This document shows, piece by piece, positions 17,911 through 62,593 of a stretch of DNA of 64,000 nucleotides. The first letter of the stretch is position 1; each line of letters opens with the position of its first letter. Position numbers and translations under genes: made by a program. The notes below the pieces were generated by a model. It saw only the letters and a list, made by a program, of their open reading frames with translations. It was not told the DNA's origin and did no database searches. This DNA comes from Candidatus Omnitrophota bacterium (GTDB lineage: Bacteria; Omnitrophota; Gorgyraeia; Gygaellales; Gygaellaceae). The stretch lies in contig JAGYNB010000002.1 of assembly GCA_018400015.1 (NCBI GenBank), forward strand, positions 52,402 through 116,401, written 5' to 3'.

Positions 17911-19605
17911 ATGCTTACCAACTTACAGATTGCTAAACAAGCCAAATTAAAACCTATTAGTGTTATTGCCCGTAATATTGGTTTAAGGAATAAAGATATT
18001 ATTCCTTATGCTAATTATGCGGCCAAGGTGGATCTAGATAGCGTAAGGCCGATATTAAGAAAACATAAAGGAAAATATATATTAGTTACCGGGATAAATC
18101 CTACACCGTTTGGTGAAGGGAAAACCGTTACTTCCATCGGTTTATCTATGGCTTTGGCAAAAAAAGGCAATCAAAAATCAATAGCCTGTATTAGACAGCC
18201 TTCCTTGGGGCCGATTTTTGGTATTAAAGGTGCTGGTACAGGAGGAGGGTTTTCGCAGGTTGTGCCTAGGGAAGACTTGAATCTGCATTTTACCGGAGAC
18301 CTTCATGCAGTGGGCGTTGCCCATAATCTATGCGCAGCTTTTCTGGATAATCATATCTATAGGGGAAACGCTTTAGATATTGATGCAAGAAATATATTTC
18401 TAAGAAGGGTAATTGATATTAATGATAGGGCCTTGCGCAACATCAAGATCTCCGTAGGATTAAAAAATAATAGTTTAGCGAGAATTAGCGGTTTTGACAT
18501 GACAACCAGTTCGGAAGTGATGTCGATCCTGTCGTTATGCAAAAGTTTTAAGGATTTAAGGAAACGTTTAGGAAGAATGACCTTGGCTTTATCACATAAG
18601 AAGACTCTGATTACCGCAGACGATCTTAAGGTGTCTGGGGCAATGGCAGTTTTGTTAAAAGATACTATAAAACCTAATCTGGTGCAGACTGTTGAGAATA
18701 CGCCGTGTTTTATGCATACCGGTCCTTTTGCAAATATATCACACGGGAATACCTCTATTTTAGCTGATAAATTGGCGCTAAACTTGAGCGAATTCGTAGT
18801 GACTGAATCAGGTTTTGGCACTGACTGCGGAGCAGAAAAGTTTTTTGATATTAAATCACGCATCTCAGGCGATATTCCGGATTGTGTCGTTTTGGTTTGT
18901 TCGGTGAGGGCAATAAAAATGCACAGTAATAAAATTGCTGTTTATCCGGGAAGGCCATTGGATAAAAGACTATATCAAGAGAATTTGGGGCTTCTAAAAA
19001 AAGGTATTTGTAATTTAAAGAGGCATATTGAAAATATTAGGCTTTTTGGTTTGTCTTGTGTTGTAGCAATCAATAGATTCGATAGCGATACAGATGAAGA
19101 AATAGATTTCTTAATAAAATCATCTTTAGAGTTTGGCGCAGATTTTGCCGCAGAAAATAGATGTTTTTCGAAGGGGTCAGAAGGTGCTTTGGAATTAGCA
19201 GGTTGTGTTATAAAAGCAAGCAATAAGAGTAAGAATTTCCGTTATTTGTATGATTTGGATATGTCAATTAGGGAAAAGATATCCATTATCGCAAAAAAAA
19301 TCTATGGTGCCAGAAGTGTTAGGTTTTCTCGCTTTACAGAAGAAAAAATAAGGTTGTTTAATCGCTTGAAATTTGATAAACTACCCGTGTGTATAGCTAA
19401 AACTCATTTATCGCTGTCGCATGATTCTTTACGTAAAGGGGCGCCGACAGATTTTGTTATACCGATAAATGATTTAAGGCTTCAAAGCGGAGCTGGTTTT
19501 TTATATGCTTTAGCCGGCAAGATAAACACGATGCCGGGATTGCCCACAAGACCCATAGGTGAATTGATGGATATCGATTCAAAAGGGAACCCAAAAGGTT
19601 TTTAG
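17911..19605 (+). CDS. fhs: formate--tetrahydrofolate ligase
   Basis: GINPTPFGEGKTVTSIGL P-loop and full-length FTHFS similarity. Confidence 0.9.
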   Translation: MLTNLQIAKQAKLKPISVIARNIGLRNKDIIPYANYAAKVDLDSVRPILRKHKGKYILVTGINPTPFGEGKTVTSIGLSMALAKKGNQKSIACIRQPSLGPIFGIKGAGTGGGFSQVVPREDLNLHFTGDLHAVGVAHNLCAAFLDNHIYRGNALDIDARNIFLRRVIDINDRALRNIKISVGLKNNSLARISGFDMTTSSEVMSILSLCKSFKDLRKRLGRMTLALSHKKTLITADDLKVSGAMAVLLKDTIKPNLVQTVENTPCFMHTGPFANISHGNTSILADKLALNLSEFVVTESGFGTDCGAEKFFDIKSRISGDIPDCVVLVCSVRAIKMHSNKIAVYPGRPLDKRLYQENLGLLKKGICNLKRHIENIRLFGLSCVVAINRFDSDTDEEIDFLIKSSLEFGADFAAENRCFSKGSEGALELAGCVIKASNKSKNFRYLYDLDMSIREKISIIAKKIYGARSVRFSRFTEEKIRLFNRLKFDKLPVCIAKTHLSLSHDSLRKGAPTDFVIPINDLRLQSGAGFLYALAGKINTMPGLPTRPIGELMDIDSKGNPKGF

Positions 19606-19606
19606 A

Positions 19607-20095
19607 ATGTATATAGAGAAAAGTATAAAAAAATATATTGAAGATTTATCTTCCCGTAAATCCACACCCGGTGGCGGTTCTGCCGCTGCCTTGACCGCGT
19701 GTTTGGGGGTTTGTTGTATGTGTATGGCCGCTCGTTTTAGTATTGGCAAAGGGAAAAACAAGGGTTTTGAAAGAAAAATAAAATCGATAATAAGCAAACT
19801 TGAAAAAATAAGGAATAGACTCAAGAGATTGGTTGATTTGGATATCGTAGCATATAATAAATACTCCCGGTCGCGCAGTAAACCTTTAGAGGTAAGACAG
19901 TTACTGTTAGAAAAAGCTGCAGCAGTACCAAAAGAGGTTTGTCAATTATGCTATGAGGCTTTGCTTTTGGCTCCAGAATTGGCAGAAAAAGGCAATTTTA
20001 ACCTTATCGCCGATGTGGAAGTCGGTGTTGAGTTGTTGGAGGCCGCTTTTAAATCTGCACTTATAAACGTAAGAATAAATAATGAAACTGCTTGA
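19607..20095 (+). CDS. fchA: cyclodeaminase/cyclohydrolase-family protein (methenyl-THF cyclohydrolase FchA-like)
   Basis: FTCD_C-like TPGGGSAAALTA motif; lies between fhs and folD. Confidence 0.7.
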   Translation: MYIEKSIKKYIEDLSSRKSTPGGGSAAALTACLGVCCMCMAARFSIGKGKNKGFERKIKSIISKLEKIRNRLKRLVDLDIVAYNKYSRSRSKPLEVRQLLLEKAAAVPKEVCQLCYEALLLAPELAEKGNFNLIADVEVGVELLEAAFKSALINVRINNETA

Positions 20096-20918
20096 AGGTA
20101 AGACTATAGCTGAAGAGATTAAAGCATCCTTAAAAAAGGATATCAATAATTTTAATCAGCAGCCTGTTTTAGCCAGCGTAAGATTGGGAGATAATTCTTC
20201 TGTGGAAAGCTATGTAAGAGCCCAGCAAAAATGCGCTCAGGAATTAGGGATTGATTATAAGTTAAAATCTCTGTCTACTCAGACTACACAAGAACAGTTA
20301 ATAGAATCTATCATTGAGTTTAATAGAAACAAAAATATAAACGGTATTATTATACAATTGCCTTTGCCGGAACATATCGATGTAAGAGGTATTTATTTAG
20401 CCGTTTCGCCGGGAAAAGATGTGGAGTCTATGCATCCTGAGAATTTAGGAAAGCTTTTTTTCCCGCAAGAGACAATCGCTCCCTGTACGGCAACCGCAGT
20501 AATGGAATTATTAAAATCTATTAATTTTAAGCTTTACGGGAAAGAGGTTGTTGTAGTTGGCCACAGTATGATCTTAGGGAAGCCTTTGTCGATAATGCTG
20601 TTAAATAATTATGCTACAACTACCGTTTGTCATATTGCAACATATAAGGCAGAGCATTTAATAGAGCACATAAAACAGGCTGATGTTTTAGTCGTTGCCG
20701 TGGGGAAAGCAAATTTTATAAAACAGGATTGGGTAAAAAAAGATGCGGTAGTTATTGATGTAGGGATAAATAGTCTAAATGGTAAAATAACCGGAGACGT
20801 GGATTTCGAAAGTGTCAGCAAGAAAGCGAGTTTTATCACTCCTGTTCCAGGAGGAGTAGGACCTTTGACTTCGGCGATATTAATGCGTAATTTAGTTAGA
20901 TTAGCGAAAAGAAAATGA
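20082..20918 (+). CDS. folD: bifunctional methylene-THF dehydrogenase/methenyl-THF cyclohydrolase
   Basis: FolD family, C-terminal PVPGGVGPLT. Confidence 0.9.
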   Translation: MKLLEGKTIAEEIKASLKKDINNFNQQPVLASVRLGDNSSVESYVRAQQKCAQELGIDYKLKSLSTQTTQEQLIESIIEFNRNKNINGIIIQLPLPEHIDVRGIYLAVSPGKDVESMHPENLGKLFFPQETIAPCTATAVMELLKSINFKLYGKEVVVVGHSMILGKPLSIMLLNNYATTTVCHIATYKAEHLIEHIKQADVLVVAVGKANFIKQDWVKKDAVVIDVGINSLNGKITGDVDFESVSKKASFITPVPGGVGPLTSAILMRNLVRLAKRK

Positions 20919-21574
20919 TAGTTACAAAACAAAAAAGTTTTCAAGATATAATGGAAGCGCTAAAAAATAAAACCAATATATTTATTATTGGTTGTGGGGA
21001 ATGTGCTACGACTTGTAAAACTGGTGGAGAAGATGAGGTTAAACTTCTCTGTGCAGAGTTATCTAAAAACAACAAGAACATAACCGGTTTTGTTATTCCT
21101 AAAGCTCCTTGTGTTGTCAGCCAGACAAAAAGAGACTTGTCAAAGTTTCGCGCGGAGTTGGAAAGATCAGACTGCATTTTAGTTATGGCATGTGGTTTGG
21201 GTGTTCAGGCTGTTATACAAAGCAAGCGTTTTAACTCAAAAGTTGTCAGCGGTTGCGATACGTTGTTTGCCGGTTCGATGACTTCATTGGGTGAGTTCTT
21301 TGAATTTTGTTCTTCGTGCGGAGAGTGTTTATTAAATATTACCGGTGGTCTTTGTCCCGTAACGCGGTGTCCAAAATCATTATTAAACGGCCCCTGCGGC
21401 GGTGCAAAAGACGGAAAATGTGAAGTAGATAGAACCAAGGATTGCGTATGGATATTGATTTATGAGCGTCTTAAAGAGTTGGGAGAACTTGATAATATCA
21501 AGTCCATAGTCAAGGCAAAAAATCATCGTAAGAATTTACGACCGGGAGTAAGGTCTTTAAAAAAAGAAAATTAA
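20915..21574 (+). CDS. metV: methylene-THF reductase C-terminal-domain protein (MetV-like, Cys-rich)
   Basis: Several CxxC pairs (IGCGECATTC, CSSCGEC, CPVTRCP); sits immediately 5' of metF as in acetogens. Confidence 0.65.
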   Translation: MIVTKQKSFQDIMEALKNKTNIFIIGCGECATTCKTGGEDEVKLLCAELSKNNKNITGFVIPKAPCVVSQTKRDLSKFRAELERSDCILVMACGLGVQAVIQSKRFNSKVVSGCDTLFAGSMTSLGEFFEFCSSCGECLLNITGGLCPVTRCPKSLLNGPCGGAKDGKCEVDRTKDCVWILIYERLKELGELDNIKSIVKAKNHRKNLRPGVRSLKKEN

Positions 21575-21576
21575 TT

Positions 21577-22446
21577 ATGAGTAAATTAGAAGCAGCTTTT
21601 AAAAACAATAAATTTGCAATTACAAGTGAAATCGGTCCGCCCAAGGGTGTTTCTTTTGAACAGATTTTAAAGGAAAATATTTCTTTAAGAGAAAGAGTGG
21701 ATGCGATTAATGTTACTGATTTGCAGAGTTCTGTTATGCGTTTGGGTTCATTGGCATTTTCTAAGATTTTATTGGATAATGGCATAGAACCGGTTTTTCA
21801 GCTTACCTGTAGAGATAGAAATAGGCTTGCTTTGCAGTCAGATCTTCTGAGCGCGGCAGTTTTAGGCATTGAAAACGTTCTCTTATTGACCGGAGATCAC
21901 CCTGTTTTGGGTGACCATCCAGAGGCAAAACCTGTATATGATTTAGACAGCGTACAACTTTTAGATTGTGCGAAAGGCCTTATAAATGGAGTTGATCTTT
22001 GCGGTAATAAACTTACCGGTAGTCCCAAATTATTTTTAGGCGCAGTTGTCAACCCGGGTGTAGAGACAATAGACCTGGAATTATTAAAGATGGAAAAAAA
22101 GGTAAAAGCAGGGGCGCAGTTTTTTCAGACTCAGGCAGTTTATGATTTATCCAGTTTTGAAAGGTTTATGAAAAAAGCAATTACTTTTGGTGTTCCGATA
22201 ATGGCAGGTATAGTACTTTTGAAATCTGCCAATATGGCCAGATACTTGAACGATAATGTTGCCGGTATAAATGTACCGGATGGATTGATTAAACGCATGC
22301 AAGATTCAAAGGATAAAGTCAAAACGTCAATTGGAATTGCTTCAAGCTTGATAAAGGAGCTGAAGGGCAATTGCCAGGGCGTACATATTATGCCTATCGG
22401 TTGGGATAAACACGTAGTAGCAGTTTTAGATCAGGCCGGTTTATAA
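21577..22446 (+). CDS. metF: 5,10-methylenetetrahydrofolate reductase
   Basis: MTHFR TIM-barrel similarity (LTCRDRNR, FFQTQAVYD motifs). Confidence 0.8.
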   Translation: MSKLEAAFKNNKFAITSEIGPPKGVSFEQILKENISLRERVDAINVTDLQSSVMRLGSLAFSKILLDNGIEPVFQLTCRDRNRLALQSDLLSAAVLGIENVLLLTGDHPVLGDHPEAKPVYDLDSVQLLDCAKGLINGVDLCGNKLTGSPKLFLGAVVNPGVETIDLELLKMEKKVKAGAQFFQTQAVYDLSSFERFMKKAITFGVPIMAGIVLLKSANMARYLNDNVAGINVPDGLIKRMQDSKDKVKTSIGIASSLIKELKGNCQGVHIMPIGWDKHVVAVLDQAGL

Positions 22447-22448
22447 TT

Positions 22449-23321
22449 ATGAATATCTTAATTATTGGAAGTTCTGCTGCAGGTATTGAGGCTGCAGGTA
22501 TGATTGTTTCCGCAGATAAATCTCACAATGTTACCATAGCAAGCGAGGATTCGGTTTTGCCCTATTATCGGTTTAAACTCGCGGATTTTCTTTTTAGTAA
22601 GGCTTGTGAGAACGGGTTTTATTTTAAGGATCAAACTTTCTTTGATAAGAACAAGATAAAATTATTATTAGGTAAGAAAGCAATAAGCTTGGATACGAGA
22701 CGTAAAAGAGTCAAATTAGATGATAATGGCTATCTGGATTTTGACAGGCTTTTGGTTGCCACAGGAGCCAATTGCGTATTGCCGGATATTAAAGGCATAA
22801 ATAAAAAGAATGTTTATGGATTAAGGAGTTTTTCCGACGTGGAAGAGATAAAAAAGAACTTGCCGGTATCTGATACAATATTTTTGGTAGGCAATGAAGC
22901 ATATTTACAGGATATGGCTTCAAATTTAAGCTCTCAGGGAAAAGAAGTTTTCTTGATTACTCAAAATAATGAACTTTTGAATAATATTAAGCAAAGCGAT
23001 AATTTAAGGTTTGTCCTTGATGATGAAATATCTGAAATAATCGGAGAATCTCAGGTTCAGGCAGTTAAGCTTAAAAGTGGTAAAGTCTTTGCCTGTTCTT
23101 TATTGATATATAATGGTAATTTTAGTCCGAACATATCATTATTGAAAGGCTCGCCGGTTGATTTATCCGATAATGGGGTAATTGTAGATGAAAATATGCG
23201 TACTAATTTAGATTTTATTTTTGCCGCTGGAGACGTGGTTGCAAATGAGACAATATCAAATCGTACTTGGGAAAATGCGCTCAAACAGGGCAGGAAAGCT
23301 GGCTTGGCAATAGTTTTATAG
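22449..23321 (+). CDS. truncated pyridine-nucleotide-disulfide oxidoreductase-family flavoprotein (LpdA/Nox N-terminal-like)
   Basis: Rossmann N-terminus IIGSSAAG, LVATGANCVLPDIKG and AAGDVV motifs; no dimerisation domain; GxGxxG motifs degenerate. Confidence 0.6.
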   Translation: MNILIIGSSAAGIEAAGMIVSADKSHNVTIASEDSVLPYYRFKLADFLFSKACENGFYFKDQTFFDKNKIKLLLGKKAISLDTRRKRVKLDDNGYLDFDRLLVATGANCVLPDIKGINKKNVYGLRSFSDVEEIKKNLPVSDTIFLVGNEAYLQDMASNLSSQGKEVFLITQNNELLNNIKQSDNLRFVLDDEISEIIGESQVQAVKLKSGKVFACSLLIYNGNFSPNISLLKGSPVDLSDNGVIVDENMRTNLDFIFAAGDVVANETISNRTWENALKQGRKAGLAIVL

Positions 23322-23370
23322 TTCATTTCTTTATGCCGCACGATAGATTAACAATCCCTGATCTCTTATA

Positions 23371-25419
23371 ATGACAAATAAATTTTCTTTAGAAAAATCG
23401 TTATCAATAGTAGAAAATAATACCAAAAGATTTTTTCAAGAATATATAATTGGTAATTCCAATATAAGATTTTCTTTTGATGATATTGAAAATGCTTTTC
23501 CTTTGTTTTTGTGTTTTTTTGGCAATAGGATTATCAGTAAGAAACAATTAAGCTTGGCTCTCGATAAGATATCTTGCATGCAGAATAAGACGGTGAAAAA
23601 TACGAAAACATTAAAATTGAGTGAATATGTTAGAAGGCTTGGTTTGATTGCTTTATTTTATGAAGAGATTCGTATATATTGTCAAATTATATTAAAACAT
23701 ATAGAATTAGAAAAAGCAATTTATAGTGATGAACGAATCAGGAACCTCGGCATAGGTTTATTAGATAATTCCTTAAGCGGCTTTATTATAGTGCCAAAGA
23801 AGACAAAAGATAAAAGTTTAGCGGATAACATAATAAGACGAAATCTGTTTTATAATGATAATATTTACAGAACCGTTCAGTGCTTAGTCAGGATTAGTTT
23901 GATGTTTGGTTGTAAAAATAAAATAAACCGGCAGTCTGTAATTAATTACTGCGCGCAGAACATACCGGCTGCAACTGTTTTGTTTGGTGATGCAAAACCC
24001 GAATATATTGCGCAAGCATTGGGTGGATTGAATTTTTCTTTAGCGGTTATTGCAAATAAAAACTTAGCAAGCGTTAAATATATTAAAGCAAAAGATGGTT
24101 TTGATAATGTTGTATTTTTTAAGAACAATGATGAAATTATCGATAAGGCAATCGAAACAAGAAATATTAGGATTAATCCTGATTTAAGCCGTTTTCCTGT
24201 AGGCTTTTCAGATACTTTTCAAGGGCAAATAATTAAAGATAAGGATCTATTGATTGATTTTCCTGTTGGATCAACCTGTGAATTGTTGGTAGATAAACCA
24301 TCTTCTTTTGTACATGACGGGAAGATTGAATTAATTGGGCATGAGTTAGATAAAATAGTTTACAATGATAAAAACAACAGGTTTTTTATATTGTTAGAAG
24401 TGGCGTTTAAAAATGAAACTAGTCGATTTAATGCTGTTCTAGAAAGGCAAATACACAGGTTTATAAATTATATAGATGGTGTAAGCCATCGGGGGCAGAA
24501 GGATTTTTTTAGCTTATCAATTAGCAAAGACGCATTCAGAAAAGGTTTGAGATTGAAAGACATTGCTTTTTTTATTTATGCAATGTTGCATAAAGAGTAT
24601 CATAGTATCGTTAGTAAGGTCCAGATAAAAATAGTTACAGACAAAAAAGAATTTGAAAAACAACTGAAAAAAACTAAAGTCATATACAGCAGTCGTTTAT
24701 TGAAAAGCTTTAAGTTAACAGATACATATGTCAAAGAATTTTATTCGTGTTCGATATGTAGCAGTTTTGTTTTAAATCATGCCTGCATTATTACTCCTGA
24801 ACATCCCGGTCTTTGCGGTTCTTATTCATTTGATGATGCAAGGATTGCTTTTAGGATTGATCCTTCCGGCGCTAGTCGTCCTATAAAAAAAGGCAAAATT
24901 ATTAGCCGCAGGCTTGGGCAATGGCAGGGGATAAACGAATTTGTCGCTAAGACAAGCAAAGAGAAAATTAAGAATATTAATCTTTATTCTATAATGCAAT
25001 CTCCACATACTTGTTCTGCGTGTTTTGAGTGTATAGTTTTGGTATTGCCGGAAGTCAACGCAGTTATGGCAGTAAGCAGAGATTATAATGGTAATACTCC
25101 TATGGGGCTGGGATTTACAGAATTGGCAGAGTTGTTTGAGTATGACAAACAGTCTCCCGGGATGATCTGTTCTAGCCGGATTTTCTTATTGAGTAAAAAA
25201 TTCATTGCTGCAGAGGGGGGTTTGGATAGGGTTGTTTGGATGAATAGCAGCTTAAAGCAATTTCTCCTAAAACACAATGGTTTTTATTTTAAAAATGATC
25301 AACTGAAGAACAGTTTAAGGAAAATTGCAGATGAGCATAACTGTATAACCTTAAAGGGGCTAGGAGAATTCATAAGTAGGGTAAAGCATCCTTGTCTGGG
25401 TATGAAGAATATTATCTAA
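23371..25419 (+). CDS. acsB: acetyl-CoA synthase (CO-methylating ACS, AcsB/CdhC family), full length with N-terminal CODH-interaction domain
   Basis: FYSCSICSSFVLNHACIITPEHPGLCGS reproduces the C-x2-C-x8-C-x9-C A-cluster [4Fe-4S] motif; ERQIHRFINY, VHDGKIELIG and LLSKKFIAAEGGLDRVVWM match conserved ACS blocks. Confidence 0.8.
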   Translation: MTNKFSLEKSLSIVENNTKRFFQEYIIGNSNIRFSFDDIENAFPLFLCFFGNRIISKKQLSLALDKISCMQNKTVKNTKTLKLSEYVRRLGLIALFYEEIRIYCQIILKHIELEKAIYSDERIRNLGIGLLDNSLSGFIIVPKKTKDKSLADNIIRRNLFYNDNIYRTVQCLVRISLMFGCKNKINRQSVINYCAQNIPAATVLFGDAKPEYIAQALGGLNFSLAVIANKNLASVKYIKAKDGFDNVVFFKNNDEIIDKAIETRNIRINPDLSRFPVGFSDTFQGQIIKDKDLLIDFPVGSTCELLVDKPSSFVHDGKIELIGHELDKIVYNDKNNRFFILLEVAFKNETSRFNAVLERQIHRFINYIDGVSHRGQKDFFSLSISKDAFRKGLRLKDIAFFIYAMLHKEYHSIVSKVQIKIVTDKKEFEKQLKKTKVIYSSRLLKSFKLTDTYVKEFYSCSICSSFVLNHACIITPEHPGLCGSYSFDDARIAFRIDPSGASRPIKKGKIISRRLGQWQGINEFVAKTSKEKIKNINLYSIMQSPHTCSACFECIVLVLPEVNAVMAVSRDYNGNTPMGLGFTELAELFEYDKQSPGMICSSRIFLLSKKFIAAEGGLDRVVWMNSSLKQFLLKHNGFYFKNDQLKNSLRKIADEHNCITLKGLGEFISRVKHPCLGMKNII

Positions 25420-25437
25420 GCAGGATTATTTTTTTAC

Positions 25438-25467
25438 TTGACTTGACCGTATTTTATGAGGTATATT
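25438..25467 (+). promoter_or_regulatory. sigma70-like promoter (TTGACT-18-TATATT) for the TPR gene
   Basis: Hexamers read in the 59-nt gap upstream of ATG 25479. Confidence 0.35.
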
Positions 25468-25478
25468 ATAGTTAAATT

Positions 25479-26432
25479 ATGCGTAACTATTTGAAATTCT
25501 TTTTTTTAGGTGTTTTTCTGGTAGTATTTATTTTCTCTATCAGCAGCGTTTGTTTAGCTGATAGCAAAGACGAAGCACTAAATTTACGCAATAAAGGTCT
25601 TTTAGCTCAAGGGACAGGAGATATCGATAAGGCTCTTGAATTTTATCTTCAAGCCCGTAAGAAATGGTCTTCTTGGCCGGTAATTTATAATGATATCGGC
25701 GTTATTTATGAGTTGCAAAATAGAATAAACGAAGCTGAATCCGTATATCTAAAGGCCATACAATTTGACCCTTATTATCCTTCCAGTTATACCAACATGG
25801 CTTTTCTTTATGAGAAGAAGCAGGATTTTAAGAACGCTATTTTCTATTGGGGAAAAAGAAGTCAGTTGGGTAATTCTGATGATCCGTGGGTAAAGACTGC
25901 ACGCGAAAGAATTGCAATTCTAAGGGGCAAGATCGGTTTACAGGGTTCTGATTCTGCTGAGGCATTTGTAAAACAAAGAAGCAGGGATATTCCTGTTGAC
26001 AATAGACATATTTTCCCTTTTAGCGATATTGAAGATACTGAATCTATAGATGACCTCACCAGAAGCGAAAAGCTTGCAAAGATCGAAAAAGATAAGATCA
26101 GAGCAGGATGGTTTCGCGATAATGGTTTTTCTGTTTTAGAGACAGAGCAACTGGAGGGTGTTGAGGAATTAGAAGATGCTATTGAAAAAGAAGACAGGCT
26201 TGAATATTTACAGCAAATGAAAAAAGACAATAATTTACTGCAGGATTTAGATAGCGAGGAATCGTTAGGGTTATTAAGAGAATTGTTAAAAGATGCAGAT
26301 CCGCAAGTAAGAAAAAGCGCTGAAGATGCCCTTTGGTATAATAGCCAGGGTTTTGGAATGTTAGCAGAAGAAGAGGCAGAGCGTATCACGCAGATGCGCA
26401 GTTTACCTTCAAGTAAATCACAGACAGAATAA
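25479..26432 (+). CDS. secreted/membrane-anchored TPR-repeat protein with acidic C-terminus
   Basis: N-terminal hydrophobic segment, TPR-like repeats (AIQFDPYYP..), acidic DE-rich tail. Confidence 0.6.
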   Translation: MRNYLKFFFLGVFLVVFIFSISSVCLADSKDEALNLRNKGLLAQGTGDIDKALEFYLQARKKWSSWPVIYNDIGVIYELQNRINEAESVYLKAIQFDPYYPSSYTNMAFLYEKKQDFKNAIFYWGKRSQLGNSDDPWVKTARERIAILRGKIGLQGSDSAEAFVKQRSRDIPVDNRHIFPFSDIEDTESIDDLTRSEKLAKIEKDKIRAGWFRDNGFSVLETEQLEGVEELEDAIEKEDRLEYLQQMKKDNNLLQDLDSEESLGLLRELLKDADPQVRKSAEDALWYNSQGFGMLAEEEAERITQMRSLPSSKSQTE

Positions 26433-26490
26433 TTAGTGCTAATCTCTAAAATTTAAAAGAGTAATGGTTTATTCCTTCCATTAGTTTTAT

Positions 26491-29013
26491 ATGAAAAATC
26501 CTAAAGAGTTAATATTGATTGACGCGAATTCTTTTTGTTACCGTGCTTTCTATGCGATAAGGCAGCTGCAGACGAGCTATGGACAGCCAACTAATGCTGT
26601 TTATGGTTTTGTTGCAATGATAAATAAACTGCTGGAAGTTTTTAATCCGGAATATGTGGCTGTTTGTTTTGATATCTCCAGGAAGACGTTCCGCAGCGAG
26701 AAATTCAAGGATTATAAATCGAACAGACCGCCCATGCCGGATGATTTGGTTTCGCAAATAGGGCTGATTAAGGAGTTGGTAAAAAGTTATAATTTTTGCC
26801 TACTAGAACGCCAAGGATATGAGGCTGATGATATTATTGCCAGTATGTGTAAGAGATTTAAAAATGAAGGTATCAAAAATATAGTTATTAGCTCTGATAA
26901 AGACATGCTGCAGTTGGTAGATGATGGTACGGTTATTTATAATCCCCAAAAAGAAAAAGGGGTTATGTTTGATGAGAAGGCTGTTATTGAAAGGTATGGT
27001 CTACGCCCCAGTCAAATAGTTGATTATATTAGTTTAATTGGAGATAATGTCGATAATATACCGGGTGTTAAGGGTATTGGAGAAAAGACCGCTCTAACAT
27101 TGCTGCGTGAATTTAAAACAATAGATAAGCTTATTGAAAACTTGGATAAAATCCAAAAGCCAAAGCTAAAAGAATCTATTTATCATGCTAAAAAGCAGCT
27201 TGCTTTAAACCGTGAGTTAGTGACTTTGGATTCTGATATAGAAATATCTCTATCTTTAGATGATTTAAAGGTAAAAGAACCGGATCTTAAGATGCTTGCC
27301 CAGCTATACAGACGCCTAGAGTTTAAGAGTTTATTAAAACAGTTACCTGTAAATGATGAAATCGAGATTATTAAAGTTAAAGAAGACCAGAAATCTTTTA
27401 TCCAGCAGATGAGAGGGAAAAAGTCTATTTCTTTTTTGATTGAGGAAGATTCTTTTTATTTGTCTTTTAATTCCTCTGATATCTGGAAATTTGATCGCAT
27501 ATTCAAAGAGCTAAAATCGCTGTTGGAAGACAAAGGCATTTTAAAAATTACCCATGATGTTAAAAAAGCTTATAAAGTTTTATCAAGAAATAAAATTACC
27601 ATCAATGGCGATATTTTCGATACATTGCTTGCCGGATATCTTTTAGATACTGGCAAAAGCGCATACCCGATAAAAGAAGTGCTTTTTGATTATCTGGAAA
27701 AACAGGTCAATAATGATTTTGAAGCTTCGATTCATTTGTTGTCATTGAAGGAAGTTCTTTTGAAAAAACTAAAAGCAAATAATTTGGAGAAGATTTTTTT
27801 GGAAGTAGAATTGCCTCTTGCCAAGGTTTTATCCAGCTTGGAAGAAGAAGGTTTCTCAATTGATACCAAATTCTTAGCTGAATTATCTAAAGAGTTTGAA
27901 AAAAGACTAAAGAAAATAACGCAGAAGATCTTTGATGTAAGCGAAGATGAGTTTAATATAAATTCACCAAAACAGTTGCGCGTAATCTTATTCGAGAAGT
28001 TAAAACTTCCTGTGGTGAAAAAGACTAAAACAGGCCCCTCAACAGATGAGGAGGTTTTACATGTATTATCTTCTAAACATGAATTGCCAGCACTTTTATT
28101 AGATTATCGTCAGATAACCAAATTAAAATCTACATATGTTGATGTGTTGCCTAGTTTGGTTGATAAAAAAGATAAGATCCATTGTAATTTAAAGCAGTTT
28201 GGGACAAGTACAGGGAGGTTATCTTGTGAAAACCCGAATTTACAGAATATACCTATAAAGACAGCTATGGGTAAAGAAATCAGACGGGCGTTCGTGTGTT
28301 CTAAAAAAGATAATGTTCTCATTTCAAGCGATTATTCGCAGATTGAGTTGAGGATGTTGGCACATTTGTCTCGTGATGAGAATTTAATCAAGGCGTTTAA
28401 TAAAGGTGATGATATTCATAAGTTCACAGCTTCTTTGGTATATGATATTAAAGAAGAAGATGTTGATAGCAAGATGCGTGATGTGGCTAAAAGAGTAAAT
28501 TTTGGCATAATCTATGGAATGAGTGCTTTTGGTCTGGCGAAAGATTTAGTTATTACCAATCAGGAGGCCCAGAATTTTATCGATACGTATTTTTTAAGGT
28601 ATCCCAAGGTCAAAGAATATATTCAAAATCAGATTGAATTTGCTGAAAAAAACGGTTATGTTGAAACGATTCTTGGCAGAAAAAGATTCTTGCCTTTTAT
28701 CAAAAGCAAGATTAACGCTCAAAAGCAGTTTGCCCATCGCCAGGCGATCAATACCCCTGTCCAGGGCTCAGCTGCCGATTTGATGAAGTTAGCAATGATA
28801 AATATTCAAGAGACGATTATTAAGAAGGACTTATCTTTGAAAATGATTTTACAGGTTCATGATGAGCTGATATTCGAGACGGATAAGAAAATAGCTAACG
28901 AGGCCGTGGATTTTATTCGCAGAAGCATGGAGCAGGTTTACAAGATAGACGTACCGATAAAGGCTAATTTAAAACAAGGTCATAATTGGTTCGATATGAA
29001 GAGTGTTAATTAA
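26491..29013 (+). CDS. polA: DNA polymerase I (5'-3' exonuclease + vestigial 3'-5' exo + polymerase)
   Basis: 5' nuclease and H3TH motifs, motif A (ISSDYSQIELR), motif B (RDVAKRVNFGIIYG), motif C (QVHDE); exo domain resembles the Taq-like inactive form (DTLLAGYLLD). Confidence 0.9.
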   Translation: MKNPKELILIDANSFCYRAFYAIRQLQTSYGQPTNAVYGFVAMINKLLEVFNPEYVAVCFDISRKTFRSEKFKDYKSNRPPMPDDLVSQIGLIKELVKSYNFCLLERQGYEADDIIASMCKRFKNEGIKNIVISSDKDMLQLVDDGTVIYNPQKEKGVMFDEKAVIERYGLRPSQIVDYISLIGDNVDNIPGVKGIGEKTALTLLREFKTIDKLIENLDKIQKPKLKESIYHAKKQLALNRELVTLDSDIEISLSLDDLKVKEPDLKMLAQLYRRLEFKSLLKQLPVNDEIEIIKVKEDQKSFIQQMRGKKSISFLIEEDSFYLSFNSSDIWKFDRIFKELKSLLEDKGILKITHDVKKAYKVLSRNKITINGDIFDTLLAGYLLDTGKSAYPIKEVLFDYLEKQVNNDFEASIHLLSLKEVLLKKLKANNLEKIFLEVELPLAKVLSSLEEEGFSIDTKFLAELSKEFEKRLKKITQKIFDVSEDEFNINSPKQLRVILFEKLKLPVVKKTKTGPSTDEEVLHVLSSKHELPALLLDYRQITKLKSTYVDVLPSLVDKKDKIHCNLKQFGTSTGRLSCENPNLQNIPIKTAMGKEIRRAFVCSKKDNVLISSDYSQIELRMLAHLSRDENLIKAFNKGDDIHKFTASLVYDIKEEDVDSKMRDVAKRVNFGIIYGMSAFGLAKDLVITNQEAQNFIDTYFLRYPKVKEYIQNQIEFAEKNGYVETILGRKRFLPFIKSKINAQKQFAHRQAINTPVQGSAADLMKLAMINIQETIIKKDLSLKMILQVHDELIFETDKKIANEAVDFIRRSMEQVYKIDVPIKANLKQGHNWFDMKSVN

Positions 29014-32301: not shown

Positions 32302-33513
32302 ATGAGAAAAAAAGTTGTTATTTTCTTTGTTTTTATATTTCTTGCTGTTTTTTCCTTTGCCCAAGAAGTAGAGGAAATCCGTATTGTTACCTATTATCCA
32401 GCGCCATACGGAAGTTATACCGAGCTTGCGGCAAGCAGGATGAAGATTGGTCCTACTTTTTCCCAAAGCGGCACAAGCGTTGGTAATGGTAATTTGATTG
32501 TGGAAAATAATGTCGCAATCGGAACTGCTACTCCAATATCTGGTGTAGCAGGTTCAGATAAGATATTAACTATTGCCGGAACCAACCCTACAATAAGATT
32601 TAATGATTTAGATGTAGGTGAAAACGATATGGAAATTCACGTGCAAAACGGGGAAATGGGTTTTTATAATCTGAGCACACTTATTATGATGTTAAAAAAC
32701 AATAATCTTGGAATTGGAACTTCTAACCCAACAGAAAGACTTCATGTTGCAGGTAATATTTTAACAACCGGTGATATTGATATTCGTGGGTCAGATATTA
32801 ATTATGGTGCGAATTCAGAGCTTCGTTTATTTGCTAATTCACCTTCTGGAACCAATCGCCGTCTTTATATCTGTGGTTATGATAGCAGTTCATCATCTGT
32901 TAAGTGCGCAAATATGTGGGTGAATGGTTCTGGGGAATTTCACCTTAATGGAAGCACTAATGATGCTTTTAATATAAATGCTCAAGGGGGTCCGCTGCTT
33001 CTTTATTCGGGAACTGGAAGTCAAATGATTTTTCATTCTACGAATTATTATCAATGGAGAAATGGCAATACCAATGCTGAGATTATGCGTTTAGACGCTT
33101 CATCTGGCAACCTCGGCGTTGGCGATACCACTCCTACAGAAGCTAAAATAGTTGCCAGAGGCGGTACGGTTGCAGGTGAAGGCGCTTATAATAATTTATC
33201 ATCTCATTCTAGTTTAAAAGACAGGTTTAAGGATATCAATGTATTAGATAAGATAAGCTCGCTTAGGATAAAAGAATGGCAGTATAAGGATGATACCGCA
33301 GAAAGGATCAATGATTACGCGAGACATCTGTATCCTTTTGCCGATGATTTTTATAAAATGTTTAGTATTGGAAAAGATGACCGCTCCATAAACGCTTTGG
33401 ATGTTGCCGGTGTTGCCTTAAAAGGTGTGCAAGAGTTAAATAAAAAAGTTGAAGATTTAGTTGTAGAAAATAAACTGTTAAAAGAGAAAATAAGTCAGTT
33501 GGAATCAAATTAA
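32302..33513 (+). CDS. secreted tail-fibre-domain protein with C-terminal endosialidase-chaperone (peptidase S74-like) domain and coiled coil
   Basis: Signal peptide; repeats NLGIGTSNPTERLHVAGNI and NLGVGDTTPTEAKIV; C-terminal SLKDRFKDIN...WQYKDD...SINALDVAGVALKGVQEL resembles the S74 intramolecular-chaperone domain. Confidence 0.6.
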   Translation: MRKKVVIFFVFIFLAVFSFAQEVEEIRIVTYYPAPYGSYTELAASRMKIGPTFSQSGTSVGNGNLIVENNVAIGTATPISGVAGSDKILTIAGTNPTIRFNDLDVGENDMEIHVQNGEMGFYNLSTLIMMLKNNNLGIGTSNPTERLHVAGNILTTGDIDIRGSDINYGANSELRLFANSPSGTNRRLYICGYDSSSSSVKCANMWVNGSGEFHLNGSTNDAFNINAQGGPLLLYSGTGSQMIFHSTNYYQWRNGNTNAEIMRLDASSGNLGVGDTTPTEAKIVARGGTVAGEGAYNNLSSHSSLKDRFKDINVLDKISSLRIKEWQYKDDTAERINDYARHLYPFADDFYKMFSIGKDDRSINALDVAGVALKGVQELNKKVEDLVVENKLLKEKISQLESN

Positions 33514-38447: not shown

Positions 38448-39238
38448 TGAAAAAACAAGCATTTTTAAAGCAGATAATTAAGCAGAAGAAAATCCGCATA
38501 GAAGAAAGCAAAAATATGCTTTCCTTGGAAGAGATTAAACAAAAGTTGAGTCAGGCTCCCAAAACCAAGGATTTTAAAAAAATCATTTTTAAGCCTCAAG
38601 AGGTTAGTTTGATTGCTGAGATAAAGAAAGCATCTCCTTCTCAGGGTATTATCAGAAATGATTTTGACCCAGTATCGATCGCTAAGACTTATGAATCTTG
38701 CGGTGTACAGGCTGTTTCCGTTTTGACCGAAGAGGATTTTTTTAAAGGATGTATTGAGAATATAAAATTGGTTAAAGATAATACACAGATGGCAATATTA
38801 AGAAAAGATTTTATTTTAGACCCTTATCAGGTATATGAATCGCGAATTTTTGGTGCCGATTGCATTCTTTTAATCGTTTCTATATTAAAAAAAGACCTTT
38901 TAATCGAGCTTTTGGATTTGGCTTATAGTCTGGGAATGCATTGTTTAGTTGAGGTGCATAACGATGTAGAGTTAAAAAGAGTTTTGTCTTTAAAAAAGGA
39001 TTTTATTCTTGGGATTAACAATCGTAATTTAGAAACTTTTGAAGTAGATATTAAAACCAGCGAGAAAATGCTTCCTTTTATACCAAAAGGCAATACAATA
39101 GTTGTTGAAAGCGGCATAAAAAATTATCAGGATGTTTTATTTCTAAAATTCTTACGTGTGAACGCCGTTTTAATCGGTGAAACGTTTATGAGGTCTGATG
39201 ATATAGCCGGTAAAGTAAAAGAGGTAATGAATTGGTAA
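38447..39238 (+). CDS. trpC: indole-3-glycerol phosphate synthase
   Basis: IGPS TIM-barrel motifs (IAEIKKASPS, GINNRNLETF). Confidence 0.85.
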   Translation: MKKQAFLKQIIKQKKIRIEESKNMLSLEEIKQKLSQAPKTKDFKKIIFKPQEVSLIAEIKKASPSQGIIRNDFDPVSIAKTYESCGVQAVSVLTEEDFFKGCIENIKLVKDNTQMAILRKDFILDPYQVYESRIFGADCILLIVSILKKDLLIELLDLAYSLGMHCLVEVHNDVELKRVLSLKKDFILGINNRNLETFEVDIKTSEKMLPFIPKGNTIVVESGIKNYQDVLFLKFLRVNAVLIGETFMRSDDIAGKVKEVMNW

Positions 39239-39849
39239 AGATAAAAATATGCGGCATAACTAATTTTGAAGATGCTTTAAAAGCAGTTGATTTAGGAGTG
39301 GATATTCTCGGTTTTAATTTTTTCAAACGAAGCCCGCGCTATATACCGCCAAAAGAAGCGGAAAAAATAATAAAGAAACTGCCTTGTTTTATATACACCG
39401 TGGGAGTTTTCGTTAACGATGATCCCAAGTATATAAATAAAACTATTGATATTACGGGAATTCAAGCCTTGCAGTTCCACGGTAACGAGACTGTTGAGTT
39501 TTGCGATAAGTTTGATTATCCTGTGATCAAAGCATTTCGCGTAAGGAATAAGGCGAGTTTCAACGATATTCCTAATTATAATGTCGACGCATACTTGCTT
39601 GATACTTATGAAGCAAGAAAATTTGGAGGAACTGGTAAAACATTCAATTGGAGGCTTGTTAAAAACTTAAAAAAGACAAGTCTTCCGATTTTTATTTCCG
39701 GCGGACTTAATCCGAAGAATGTTGTACAGGCTATTAAAGTGACCAATCCTTACGCCGTAGATGTAAATTCAGGGATAGAAAAACATCCGGGTAAAAAAGA
39801 CCCCAAACTTATGAAAGAGTTTGTTTATAAGGCAAGAGGGACAATTTAG
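39232..39849 (+). CDS. trpF: phosphoribosylanthranilate isomerase
   Basis: PRAI family (KICGIT.., FISGGLNP). Confidence 0.85.
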   Translation: MVKIKICGITNFEDALKAVDLGVDILGFNFFKRSPRYIPPKEAEKIIKKLPCFIYTVGVFVNDDPKYINKTIDITGIQALQFHGNETVEFCDKFDYPVIKAFRVRNKASFNDIPNYNVDAYLLDTYEARKFGGTGKTFNWRLVKNLKKTSLPIFISGGLNPKNVVQAIKVTNPYAVDVNSGIEKHPGKKDPKLMKEFVYKARGTI

Positions 39850-39873: not shown

Positions 39874-40602
39874 ATGGTATTTCTTCTGGTATTATTGATG
39901 GCAGCGACAGCAGGGTTGTCGTTTTTTATTATCATGAATATCAATTCCTCAGAGCAGGATCAAAAATTAGCAATCAAGAGACTTCAAGATGACGTTAAAA
40001 GGAAATCTCACGAGCTTGAAGATACCCAGATTCACCTAAAAGAGTTTATCGATAAGCACCAGCAGAAAGAAAACGACAGGGAAGCCGTAAACGAACAGTT
40101 GAAGGAGCTTCATAAGCTGCGTGATATGTTAAAACAAAGAGAAACTGAGATTGCAAAGCTTACAAGGACAAATGAAGGTTTGAATAATGATTTATCTAGC
40201 GCCAAAAAGAATATGGAAAAGTTAAATACAGAGCTTGCTAGCGTCAATGAAGTATACAATGGTCTAAAAGAGCAGTACGCTGAATTGGAAAAAGAGATGG
40301 AGACTTCTAAAGATAAACCTACAGAATTTAAACCAAAACCGGCAATAGAAAAGGAACCGCCAAAAGATTTGCCAACACAAGAGAAGATTATTTCTAGTAA
40401 TACGGAAAAACCCAATGAAGCAATCAATAAAAAACCCATATTGGGAAAAGAGAACATATACACGCTTTCTAAGGATGATTCGGTTTCTTTAGATAAAGAT
40501 AAAACTTTGGACGATGTTTCTAAGAATGAAGATAAAACTTTCAAGAAGGAAGAAGAAGACAATCTCGATAACGGGGATAATAAATTATCAAGTAATCAAT
40601 GA
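39874..40602 (+). CDS. membrane-anchored coiled-coil protein of unknown function
   Basis: One N-terminal TM helix, about 130 aa of heptad-like coiled coil, low-complexity K/E/D-rich tail; no recognisable enzymatic motif. Confidence 0.5.
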
Positions 40603-62567: not shown

Positions 62568-62593
62568 TTTTCTTAATAAGGAGGCTTGTTCCT

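What the first reader, a model, noticed from the sequence alone, without database searches (positions are those of the whole stretch)
23371..25419. ACS homolog with an altered Ni-binding motif: C-S-A-C in place of the canonical Cys-Gly-Cys
The four [4Fe-4S] cysteines of the A-cluster (C-x2-C-x8-C-x9-C, FYSCSICSSFVLNHACIITPEHPGLCGS) and the gating Phe are conserved. By contrast, the downstream block reads SPHTCSACFECIVLVLPE where Moorella-type ACS has, as I recall, PMTSCGCFEAIMAILPE. In a gap-free alignment the bridging Cys595 becomes Ser, Gly596 becomes Ala, and new Cys appear one residue upstream and three downstream. Since Cys595-Gly596-Cys597 supplies the thiolates and backbone amides for both Ni ions, this would imply a rearranged metal site (a C-x-x-C N2S2-type site) or a changed function. 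That would be unusual for the AcsB/CdhC family.
Basis: partly seen in the sequence, partly recalled or inferred. Interest (0 to 1): 0.75.

Follow-up and report, generated by a model that had tools for sequence, protein, structure and literature searches.

The report
Nickel-site-degenerate acetyl-CoA synthase relic
This gene descends from the nickel enzyme acetyl-CoA synthase but has lost its partner enzyme and the exact residues that hold the two nickel ions, while selection still keeps its iron-sulfur site, so it is most likely a repurposed ex-enzyme and not a new kind of nickel site.

Summary
ORF 23371-25419 (682 aa) is an ACS homolog that keeps the four cubane Cys and Phe512, but reads T-C-S-A-C where 216/216 canonical relatives read x-C-G-C, in a gap-free alignment. 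One sub-claim is wrong: the Cys three residues downstream is the family norm (215/216).

Comparative genomics explains the variant. Canonical Omnitrophota loci read MetF-CODH-CooF-(CooC)-flavoprotein(421 aa)-ACS-TPR-PolA. The window and Ca. Gygaella obscura lack CODH, CooF and CooC, and their flavoprotein is cut to about 290 aa with its NAD(P)H motif and active-site Cys gone. The window's protein is the most diverged member of a nine-cluster Omnitrophota clade whose Ni ligands decayed in different ways (SCGF, SSGY, SGGY, TSGL, SSSL, CS[A/L]C). All nine keep the cubane Cys and all have lost invariant W427. Sister proteins in the same CODH-less locus still have CGC, so the deletion came first. 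The published Gygaella MAG has no CODH, CFeSP or MeTr.

dN/dS (0.22-0.23) shows purifying selection, so this is not a pseudogene. The best reading is an ex-ACS retained as a [4Fe-4S] protein together with a flavoprotein remnant. A rearranged Cys594/Cys597 metal site is not excluded (about 13%).

The parts
23371..25419 (+). ACS-derived protein (682 aa): three-domain ACS fold, cubane ligands kept, Ni-Ni ligand set disrupted
   Evidence: Pfam CdhC (275-427) and ACS_CODH_B_C (441-681). NCBIfam CODH_ACS_al_bet 514 bits against a cut-off of 800. AF2 pLDDT 84, TM 0.75 to 6ytt_A.
23371..24180 (+). Strongly diverged N-terminal (A1, CODH-docking/tunnel) domain, aa 1-270. Not recognised by PF18537, about 35 aa deleted, 18-20% identity to canonical Omnitrophota ACS. 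Alcove residues G127, I128, L131 (V149->L) and F179 retained.
   Evidence: Fold still matches the isolated ACS N-domain 6yua (TMt 0.69-0.75). Alcove mapping plus PMC11321310.
24748..24816 (+). [4Fe-4S] ligand block C460-x2-C463-x2-F466-x5-C472-x9-C482 (= C506, C509, F512, C518, C528)
   Evidence: These Cys are invariant in 216/216 canonical proteins and in all nine variants.
25006..25032 (+). Former Ni-binding loop H546-T-C548-S549-A550-C551-F-E-C554 (canonical T-S-C595-G596-C597-F-E-C). Ser-Cys to Cys-Ser codon swap (TGT TCT).
24511..24519 (+). S381-L-S383 replacing invariant W427-x-R429. W427 is the only >=99%-invariant ACS column changed in all nine variants.
22449..23321 (+). Flavoprotein remnant (290 aa, Pyr_redox_2) derived from the 421-aa FNOR-like protein of canonical loci. 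About 120-aa C-terminal domain deleted, NAD(P)H GxGxxG lost (GNEAYL), C-R-C lost, FAD-type N-terminal motif and GD motif kept.
   Evidence: dN/dS 0.13, and 0.08 in the L023/L024 pair.
21577..22446 (+). MetF (methylene-THF reductase), immediately upstream; 87% identical to the Gygaella copy
20915..21574 (+). MetV-like (DUF5981 / MTHFR C-terminal) protein
17911..20918 (+). Fhs (17911-19605), FchA (19607-20095) and FolD (20082-20918): the rest of the THF methyl branch
25479..26432 (+). TPR protein, conserved downstream neighbour in canonical and derived loci alike

Best explanation
The gene is the direct (syntenic) descendant of a bacterial acetyl-CoA synthase (AcsB) in a Gygaella-like Omnitrophota lineage that has dismantled the carbonyl branch of the Wood-Ljungdahl pathway.

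Shown. (1) In relatives the locus is MetF-CODH-CooF-(CooC)-flavoprotein-ACS. Here CODH, CooF and CooC are deleted and the flavoprotein is truncated and has lost its NAD(P)H motif and active-site Cys. (2) This deletion preceded the loss of the Ni ligands. (3) In one clade of nine protein clusters the Cys595-Gly596-Cys597 ligands and invariant Trp427 were then lost, in different ways in different sublineages. The window's protein is the most diverged member (S594C, C595S, G596A, C597 kept). (4) The four cubane cysteines, H516, F598 and C600 stay invariant in all nine, and the gene and its flavoprotein-remnant partner are under purifying selection.

Inferred. The protein can no longer build the Ni_p-Ni_d part of the A-cluster, so it does not make or cleave acetyl-CoA. 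It persists as a [4Fe-4S]-carrying, ACS-fold pseudoenzyme that works as a unit with the flavoprotein remnant; the two are fused into one polypeptide in many other Omnitrophota. Its role is probably structural or electron-transfer, within the MetF/MetV one-carbon operon where it is embedded. The C-S-A-C string is therefore mainly the footprint of ligand decay and not a designed N2S2 site.
For: Orthology and deletion: the flanks are identical (TGT-TrmD-L19-RNaseHII-Fhs-FchA-FolD-MetF ... TPR-PolA-GlgA-CoaE-Rho-L31-PrfA-PrmC-AroA) in the window, Gygaella L001 and canonical L006/L007, and only the latter two have CODH (Prismane), Fer4 and CooC. No CODH, CFeSP, MeTr or CooC occurs in the 64 kb window. 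Table S5 of PMC8542988 lists no AcsA, B, C, D, E or CooF for the 85%-complete Gygaella MAG.

Clade: nine variants (CSAC, CSLC, SSSL, SCGF x2, TSGL, SSGY x2, SGGY) are monophyletic. All examined loci are CODH-less with a roughly 293-aa flavoprotein. Sisters P0122 and P0124, and the 854-aa P0162, keep CGC in the same CODH-less locus.

Site pattern: C595, G596 and C597 are 216/216 in canonical proteins and disrupted in 9/9 variants. W427 is changed in 9/9. The cubane Cys, H516, F598 and C600 are kept in 9/9.

Acceleration: identity to ACSs of other phyla falls from 0.55 (CODH at the locus) to 0.45-0.49 (CODH-less, CGC intact) to 0.34-0.46 (Ni-less) to 0.31 (query). The query keeps only 105 of 178 invariant columns and is the least conserved enzyme in its syntenic block.

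Selection: dN/dS is 0.23 for window vs Gygaella. In the unsaturated pair L023/L024 it is 0.22 for the ACS-like gene and 0.08 for the flavoprotein.

Fold retained. Flavoprotein motif decay. Flavoprotein-ACS fusions.
Against: Loss of catalysis is inferred from sequence only; no metal content or activity data exist. C548 and C551, together with bridging C463, could still offer three thiolates next to the cubane, and the Ser-Cys to Cys-Ser swap is conserved in both carriers. Four of the five CO-alcove residues and Phe512 are retained. Absence of CODH and CFeSP rests on a 64-kb window and an 85%-complete MAG of a different genus. The proposed link to MetF/MetV rests only on conserved adjacency, which is ancestral, and on translational coupling. 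The clade topology comes from a simple NJ tree and could be affected by long-branch attraction, although synteny and the shared W427 loss support it independently.
Confidence: 0.66

Rival explanations
1. Rearranged but functional metal site. Cys548 (position 594) replaces Cys595 as a ligand, so that C463, C548 and C551 hold one metal (Ni, or Fe/Zn/Cu) bridged to the cubane, or a Cys-x-x-Cys amidate/thiolate site replaces Ni_d. The protein would keep some Ni-dependent or redox chemistry, possibly a CODH-independent ACS-like reaction as in Dehalococcoides.
For: Ser-Cys to Cys-Ser is a two-substitution adjacent-codon swap, conserved in both carriers at 56% overall identity, with a synonymous difference at C551. 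The side chain at 594 can reach the Ni_d position (S594H, PMC8910529). A Ni(Cys)3 site alone can bind CO and accept methyl in a designed peptide (PMC10299331). Cubane Cys, F512 and 4 of 5 alcove residues are kept. CODH-less ACS function has a precedent (Zhuang 2014, as cited in PMC7918482).
Against: Sister lineages lose the same ligands with no replacement and are still conserved. Residue 596 is Ala in one carrier and Leu in the other. W427, R429, Q510, P514, R524, W533 and the GGG636-638 loop are lost. No CooC/AcsF, CFeSP or MeTr is found in the window or the Gygaella MAG. There are only two sequences, so conservation of two residues is weak evidence.
Confidence: 0.13
2. Functionless relic on its way out. 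The ORF is simply a slowly decaying remnant that has not yet acquired stops.
For: It is the most diverged member of the whole family. It evolves about twice as fast as its neighbours. The cofactor motifs of its partner are also degenerate.
Against: dN/dS is 0.22-0.23, far below 1, with dS about 1.5 between window and Gygaella. At that divergence a neutral sequence would be scrambled and interrupted. Intact full-length ORFs occur in all 11 CODH-less loci examined, with overlapping, translationally coupled gene ends. 64 of 122 invariant columns, including all cubane ligands, are kept in all nine variants. Omnitrophota genomes are small (1.38 Mb MAG) and unlikely to carry 2 kb of junk across genera.
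Confidence: 0.1
3. Still a genuine acetyl-CoA synthase of a complete Wood-Ljungdahl pathway, whose other genes lie outside the window.
For: Methyl-branch genes (Fhs, FchA, FolD, MetV, MetF) are adjacent. The fold and cubane site are intact.
Against: Cys595 and Gly596, invariant in 216/216 canonical proteins and direct ligands of both Ni ions (PMC10299331), are replaced. The protein scores below the NCBIfam equivalog cut-off (514 vs 800). The CODH-docking domain is unrecognisable by sequence. The published Gygaella reconstruction shows no carbonyl branch. Methyl-branch genes are present in nearly all Ace Lake Omnitrophota whether or not they have the pathway.
Confidence: 0.04

Closest known systems
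Bacterial acetyl-CoA synthase AcsB (CO-methylating acetyl-CoA synthase, alpha subunit of CODH/ACS; e.g. Moorella thermoacetica 1OAO, C. autoethanogenum 6YTT)
   Same: Three-domain fold (TM 0.75 to 6ytt_A). Pfam CdhC and ACS_CODH_B_C domains. C506/C509/C518/C528 cubane ligands, H516, F512, F598 and C600. Syntenic orthology with canonical Omnitrophota AcsB.
   Different: C595S, G596A and S594C. W427S and R429S, plus about 70 other invariant positions changed. N-terminal CODH-docking domain at 18-20% identity with an approximately 35-aa deletion. No CODH, CooF or CooC at the locus. Below the NCBIfam equivalog cut-off.
Ni-ligand-degenerate Omnitrophota ACS-like proteins (P0008, P0121, P0123, P0138, P0154, P0194, P0202; some are annotated in NCBI as 'acetyl-CoA decarbonylase/synthase complex subunit alpha/beta')
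   Same: Same clade, same CODH-less locus with a truncated flavoprotein, loss of W427, cubane Cys retained, and purifying selection.
   Different: Those are 715-717 aa, still recognised by PF18537, and have lost C597 and mostly C595 with no new Cys. The query clade keeps C597, gains C594, keeps F512 and the flavoprotein GD motif, has MetV, and is much more diverged (31% vs 34-46% identity to ACSs of other phyla).
CODH-less ACS of Dehalococcoides mccartyi (incomplete Wood-Ljungdahl pathway; Zhuang et al. 2014, as cited in PMC7918482)
   Same: An ACS kept in a genome without CODH, linked to folate one-carbon metabolism.
   Different: The Dehalococcoides enzyme is catalytically active together with CFeSP (acetyl-CoA cleavage to methyl-THF, releasing CO). 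From recall, not tested here, it has a canonical Ni site. In the present lineage the Ni ligands are altered, and CFeSP and MeTr were not found in the related MAG.
Pseudoenzymes (catalytically dead homologs retained for scaffolding or regulatory roles)
   Same: Active-site ligands lost while fold, partner association and purifying selection persist, in both the ACS-like protein and its flavoprotein partner.
   Different: No non-catalytic role has been demonstrated here. The retained [4Fe-4S] site may still be redox-active.

Membership tests
Acetyl-CoA synthase AcsB/CdhC (EC 2.3.1.169) | ACS catalytic core domains (Pfam CdhC PF03598 and ACS_CODH_B_C PF19436) and the three-domain fold | tested here: met
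   E 1.7e-36 and 5.6e-79. AF2 model TM 0.75 to 6ytt_A and 0.87 (TMt) to the truncated ACS 3git.
Acetyl-CoA synthase AcsB/CdhC (EC 2.3.1.169) | Four Cys ligating the [4Fe-4S] cubane of the A-cluster (C506, C509, C518, C528) | tested here: met
   C460, C463, C472 and C482 in a gap-free alignment.
Acetyl-CoA synthase AcsB/CdhC (EC 2.3.1.169) | Cys595-Gly596-Cys597 tripeptide, supplying both bridging thiolates to Ni_p and the N2S2 site of Ni_d | tested here: not met
   The query has S549-A550-C551. These positions are 216/216 C, G and C in canonical relatives. Ligand roles are from PMC10299331.
Acetyl-CoA synthase AcsB/CdhC (EC 2.3.1.169) | Score above the curated NCBIfam equivalog cut-off (NF040764 CODH_ACS_al_bet) | tested here: not met
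   514 bits against a cut-off of 800. TIGR00316 cdhC scores 304 against 356.
Acetyl-CoA synthase AcsB/CdhC (EC 2.3.1.169) | N-terminal CODH-docking / CO-tunnel domain (PF18537) of bacterial AcsB | tested here: inconclusive
   No PF18537 hit, 18-20% identity and an approximately 35-aa deletion. However, the fold matches 6yua (TMt 0.69-0.75) and alcove residues G145, I146 and F229 are kept, with V149->L.
Acetyl-CoA synthase AcsB/CdhC (EC 2.3.1.169) | Genomic association with CODH (AcsA/CooS), CFeSP (AcsC/D), methyltransferase (AcsE) and the Ni-insertion ATPase (CooC/AcsF) | tested here: not met
   None is in the 64-kb window. CODH, CooF and CooC are deleted from the syntenic position. None is listed for the Gygaella MAG. 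The whole source genome was not available.
Acetyl-CoA synthase AcsB/CdhC (EC 2.3.1.169) | Ni content and acetyl-CoA synthesis or CO/acetyl-CoA exchange activity | not testable with these tools
   Requires anaerobic purification, metal analysis and assays.
Omnitrophota Ni-ligand-degenerate ACS-like clade (defined here) | At least one of C595/C597 lost, W427 replaced, cubane Cys kept | tested here: met
   C595S, W427S, and C460/463/472/482 kept. Groups with the other eight variants in the NJ tree.
Omnitrophota Ni-ligand-degenerate ACS-like clade (defined here) | CODH-less MetF-flavoprotein remnant (about 290 aa, NAD motif lost)-ACS-like-TPR-PolA locus | tested here: met
   Window 21577-29013. 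The same arrangement occurs in L001 and L022-L025.
Omnitrophota Ni-ligand-degenerate ACS-like clade (defined here) | Maintained by purifying selection | tested here: met
   dN/dS 0.23 (window vs L001, dS near saturation) and 0.22 (L023 vs L024, dS 0.27).
Nitrile-hydratase-type Cys-(S/T)-L-Cys-Ser-Cys amidate/thiolate metal site (considered because Gygaella reads C-S-L-C; the motif is recalled from memory) | Three Cys in C-x-x-C-S-C, with two backbone amidates | tested here: not met
   The query reads C-S-A-C-F-E and Gygaella C-S-L-C-F-E. The third Cys and the Ser are absent. This is a resemblance only.

The most novel reading that the evidence does not exclude
Cys548 (position 594), Cys551 (597) and the cubane-bridging Cys463 (509) form a mononuclear metal site attached to the [4Fe-4S] cluster. 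This would be a 'one-nickel A-cluster' lacking Ni_d, or a Cys-x-x-Cys replacement of the N2S2 site, that retains CO, methyl or redox chemistry independently of CODH. It would be a natural minimal version of the ACS active site.
Probability: 0.12. Interest if true: 0.85.

Novelty: new variant of a known kind. Interest (0 to 1): 0.5.

Why it matters
Three reasons. (1) Annotation and ecology. ACS is the marker gene for the Wood-Ljungdahl pathway. At least nine Omnitrophota protein clusters carry an ACS-fold gene without the Ni ligands, and some are named 'acetyl-CoA decarbonylase/synthase' in NCBI. Many more Omnitrophota have a CGC-intact ACS with no CODH at the locus. Marker-based calls of acetogenesis or autotrophy in this phylum are therefore at risk. 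(2) Enzyme evolution. The series from CODH-linked ACS, to orphan ACS with CGC, to Ni-less ACS-like, to the window's protein, is a stepwise natural dissection of a complex metalloenzyme. The cubane half of the A-cluster and the fold outlive the Ni half under selection, which points to an undescribed function for the ACS scaffold and its flavoprotein partner. (3) Bioinorganic chemistry. If the shifted Cys does bind a metal, this would be a natural test of whether Ni_d is dispensable. I found no paper describing these proteins, but the library searched is incomplete.

Tried and rejected
(1) A gap that restores C-G-C: rejected. HMMER and MAFFT alignments are gap-free from the cubane motif to the Ni motif with a constant offset of 46, and no CGC exists in the protein.

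(2) Assembly artefact: rejected. The Gygaella ortholog from 13 contigs in several samples shows C-S-L-C.

(3) Population polymorphism as a selection test: L001-L004 are nucleotide-identical over the gene, so there was no information.

(4) GTDB-representative genome scan with P0001: it returned only canonical ACSs of other phyla (<=46% identity) and neither the source genome nor Gygaella, so no new variant carriers. That scan could therefore not be used to look for CODH or CFeSP in the source genome.

(5) Exhaustive HMMER search: no intermediate relatives. The next-best hit is 35-36% identical.

(6) Literature searches for natural ACS homologs lacking the Ni ligands, and for the role of W427/R429: nothing found. 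One search failed on syntax.

(7) Measuring Cys-Cys distances in the AF2 model: coordinates are not exposed to the scripting environment.

(8) Pseudogene reading: rejected on dN/dS and ORF integrity.

(9) 'CODH loss at the locus explains the Ni-site loss directly': weakened. CGC-intact ACSs (P0122, P0124, P0162) sit in the same CODH-less locus, so the deletion is necessary background but not sufficient.

(10) Nitrile-hydratase-like CSLCSC site: rejected, because the third Cys is absent.
Full report
OBSERVATION. The ORF at 23371-25419 (+) encodes 682 aa. It hits Pfam CdhC (aa 275-427) and ACS_CODH_B_C (aa 441-681). It stays below the curated NCBIfam cut-offs for ACS (514 bits against 800). phmmer against all PDB sequences aligns aa 165-680 to bacterial ACS chains (6ytt_A, E 5e-92; also 1oao and 1mjg), with no gap between the cubane motif and the Ni motif. 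With a constant offset of 46 to Moorella numbering, C460, C463, C472 and C482 correspond to C506, C509, C518 and C528, and F466 to F512. P545-H-T-C548-S549-A550-C551-F-E-C554 aligns to P-M-T-S594-C595-G596-C597-F-E-(A/C)600. Two details are not. The Cys 'three downstream' is Cys in 215 of 216 canonical ACSs, so it is not new. The recalled Moorella string is also off by one residue (AIMAYLPE).

HOW UNUSUAL. In 216 canonical ACSs collected here, C595, G596 and C597 are each invariant. Two searches of 5.8 billion proteins gave 239 proteins, and nine lack the motif: the query (CSAC), its only close relative P0002 from Ca. Gygaella obscura (56% identity, CSLC), and P0008 (SSSL), P0121 and P0138 (SCGF), P0123 (TSGL), P0154 and P0194 (SSGY) and P0202 (SGGY). 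An exhaustive HMMER scan of 1.84 billion cluster representatives found nothing closer to the query than 35-36% identity. Across the 125 representatives of the whole ACS/CdhC superfamily that span the region, only 56 carry C-G-C. A further 14 have C-x-C with another residue, about 45 real sequences have lost one or both Cys, and about 8 are frameshift artefacts. Loss of the Ni ligands is thus rare by sequence count but recurrent among divergent lineages. I found no paper describing such proteins.

CONTEXT. The gene follows Fhs, FchA, FolD, MetV, MetF and a 290-aa Pyr_redox_2 protein, and precedes a TPR protein and PolA. Nothing else in the 64 kb encodes CODH, CFeSP, the methyltransferase or CooC. 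The same long synteny (TGT-TrmD-L19-RNaseHII ... PolA-GlgA-CoaE-Rho-L31-PrfA-PrmC-AroA) is found in other Omnitrophota. In canonical loci L006 and L007 the order is MetF-CODH (637 aa)-CooF-like ferredoxin-(CooC)-flavoprotein (421 aa, Pyr_redox_2 plus Rubredoxin_C)-ACS (726 aa, with the PF18537 N-domain). In the window and in Gygaella (L001) CODH, CooF and CooC are cleanly absent (MetF stops at 22446 and the flavoprotein starts at 22449), and the flavoprotein is about 290 aa. The gene is therefore the ortholog of AcsB and not a stray paralog.

THE CLADE AND THE ORDER OF EVENTS. All nine variants group together in an NJ tree. Every variant locus that could be read (L001, L022-L025, and L005 in part) has the CODH-less arrangement with a 289-294-aa flavoprotein whose end overlaps the start of the ACS-like gene. 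The nearest sisters P0124 and P0122 keep S-C-G-C yet already sit in the same CODH-less locus. So does P0162, an 854-aa form. Deletion of CODH and CooF and truncation of the flavoprotein therefore came first, and ligand loss followed in a subset. Within the variant clade the ligand positions read differently in each sublineage: C595 survives only in the SCGF pair and C597 only in the query pair. By contrast the four cubane Cys, H516, F598 and C600 are invariant in all nine. The only >=99%-invariant ACS column changed in all nine is W427; its role could not be found. Identity to ACSs of other phyla falls stepwise: 0.55 with CODH at the locus, 0.45-0.49 for CODH-less with CGC, 0.34-0.46 for Ni-less 717-aa forms, and 0.31 for the query clade. 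Canonical ACSs from different phyla never fall below 0.44. The query keeps only 105 of 178 columns that are >=97% invariant. Losses include R429, Q510, P514, R524, W533 and G636-G638, and many replacements are shared with Gygaella.

NOT A PSEUDOGENE. Between the window and Gygaella, synonymous sites are near saturation (dS about 1.5), yet the protein is 55-56% identical, giving dN/dS 0.23. Neighbours range from 0.02 to 0.22. In the unsaturated pair L023/L024 (dS 0.2-0.3) the Ni-less ACS-like gene has dN/dS 0.22, and the flavoprotein remnant 0.08, which is lower than MetF. The AF2 model is confident (pLDDT 84) and superposes on full-length C. autoethanogenum ACS (TM 0.75), including the N-terminal domain. 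By sequence, however, that domain is only 18-20% identical to canonical Omnitrophota ACS, has an approximately 35-aa deletion and is not recognised by PF18537. Of the five CO-alcove residues (G145, I146, V149, F229 and F512; PMC11321310) four are kept and V149 is Leu.

THE PARTNER. The 421-aa flavoprotein of canonical loci has a GGGLVG NAD(P)H motif, a C-R-C motif, a GD motif and a C-terminal domain. All truncated copies, including those next to CGC-intact ACSs, have lost the NAD motif (GNEAYL in the window), the C-R-C motif and about 120 C-terminal residues. The GD motif survives only in the window/Gygaella lineage. Most Omnitrophota ACSs in the set are fused to this remnant, either whole (1014-1029 aa) or as its central approximately 125 aa (about 850 aa). 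This argues that the remnant and ACS form one physical unit.

ORGANISM. The published reconstruction of Ca. Gygaella obscura (85%-complete MAG, 1.38 Mb, 35% GC, Ace Lake) describes a fermenter. Its Table S5 lists FolD and MetF but no AcsA, B, C, D, E, CooF or Fhs. Only Ca. Gorgyraea atricola among 14 MAGs has the carbonyl branch (PMC8542988). NCBI labels the Gygaella protein 'hypothetical protein', whereas Ni-less SSGY proteins are labelled as ACS.

INTERPRETATION. Shown: orthology to AcsB; deletion of CODH, CooF and CooC; prior truncation and decay of the flavoprotein; heterogeneous loss of the Ni ligands in one clade; retention of the cubane ligands and the fold; purifying selection. Inferred: the protein no longer assembles the Ni_p-Ni_d subsite. 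Both Ni ions depend on C595 and C597, and Ni_d on the Cys-Gly-Cys backbone (PMC10299331). It therefore is not an acetyl-CoA synthase. It persists as a [4Fe-4S] ACS-fold protein acting with the flavoprotein remnant, plausibly in the MetF/MetV one-carbon operon. That last step is the weakest, since it rests only on conserved adjacency and coupling. The Ser-Cys to Cys-Ser change is an adjacent-codon swap kept in both carriers, and a side chain at 594 can reach the Ni_d position (PMC8910529). Against it, the sister lineages lose these ligands without replacement and are equally conserved, residue 596 differs between the two carriers, and no Ni-maturation or methyl-donor genes are seen.

VERDICT. 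The feature is a new variant of a known kind: an ACS-derived, Ni-ligand-degenerate [4Fe-4S] protein, and the extreme member of a small Omnitrophota clade. It is of moderate interest for annotation of the Wood-Ljungdahl pathway and for metalloenzyme evolution.

Noticed in passing
P0125-P0239 set; L028:10001-12565: Most Omnitrophota ACSs with an intact S-C-G-C motif carry an N-terminal fusion to a remnant of the neighbouring flavoprotein. About 850-aa forms (78 of 119) carry about 125 aa of its NAD-domain-like part, and 1014-1029-aa forms carry the whole truncated flavoprotein (about 300 aa). The 854-aa P0162 sits in a CODH-less locus (FolD-MetF-fusion ACS-TPR-PolA). What an orphan, CGC-intact ACS does there is unknown.
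   Followed up: partly
P0154 cluster (MDD3987422.1 and others); L023:10001-12154: ACS-like proteins with no Ni-ligand Cys (S-S-G-Y) and with F512 replaced are named 'acetyl-CoA decarbonylase/synthase complex subunit alpha/beta' in NCBI records. This risks over-calling the Wood-Ljungdahl pathway in Omnitrophota.
   Followed up: partly
P0240-P0385 (superfamily representatives): Among 125 region-spanning 50%-identity cluster representatives of the ACS/CdhC superfamily, only 56 have C-G-C. 14 have C-x-C with Ser, Arg, Ala or His, and about 45 have lost one or both Cys; many of these are about 420-aa two-domain CdhC-like proteins. Their contexts were not examined.
   Followed up: no
window 24511-24513 (S381); all nine variants: Trp427 (Moorella numbering) is the only >=99%-invariant ACS column replaced in every Ni-ligand-degenerate variant. 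One CGC-intact near relative (P0128) has Arg there. Its structural or catalytic role could not be established from the literature available.
   Followed up: partly
window 17911-19605 vs L001:5951-6230: Formate-THF ligase (Fhs) is present in the window between RNase HII and FchA. It is absent from the same position in Ca. Gygaella obscura and is not listed for that MAG, so the methyl branch is also being eroded differentially.
   Followed up: partly
window 1-64000: Nearly every gene is on the + strand, and GC skew is strongly positive (+0.11 to +0.27) throughout, consistent with one long leading-strand replichore segment. The only sizeable minus-strand gene is a SurA/PPIase-like protein at 56333-57793, in the lowest-GC, lowest-skew stretch.
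   Followed up: no
window 39874-40602: A 242-aa ORF with no Pfam hit is embedded in the tryptophan operon, between TrpF (39232-39849) and TrpB (40599-41765).
   Followed up: no
window 62561-62989: A SpoVG homolog whose Pfam match spans aa 12-135 for an 82-position profile. It has an inserted double-zinc-ribbon-like segment around aa 68-90.
   Followed up: no
window 32302-33513: A protein with a Peptidase_S74 (endosialidase chaperone) domain lies between Rho and L31/PrfA. It is only 43% identical over its N-terminal 160 aa to the Gygaella counterpart, making it the fastest-evolving gene of the syntenic block.
   Followed up: no
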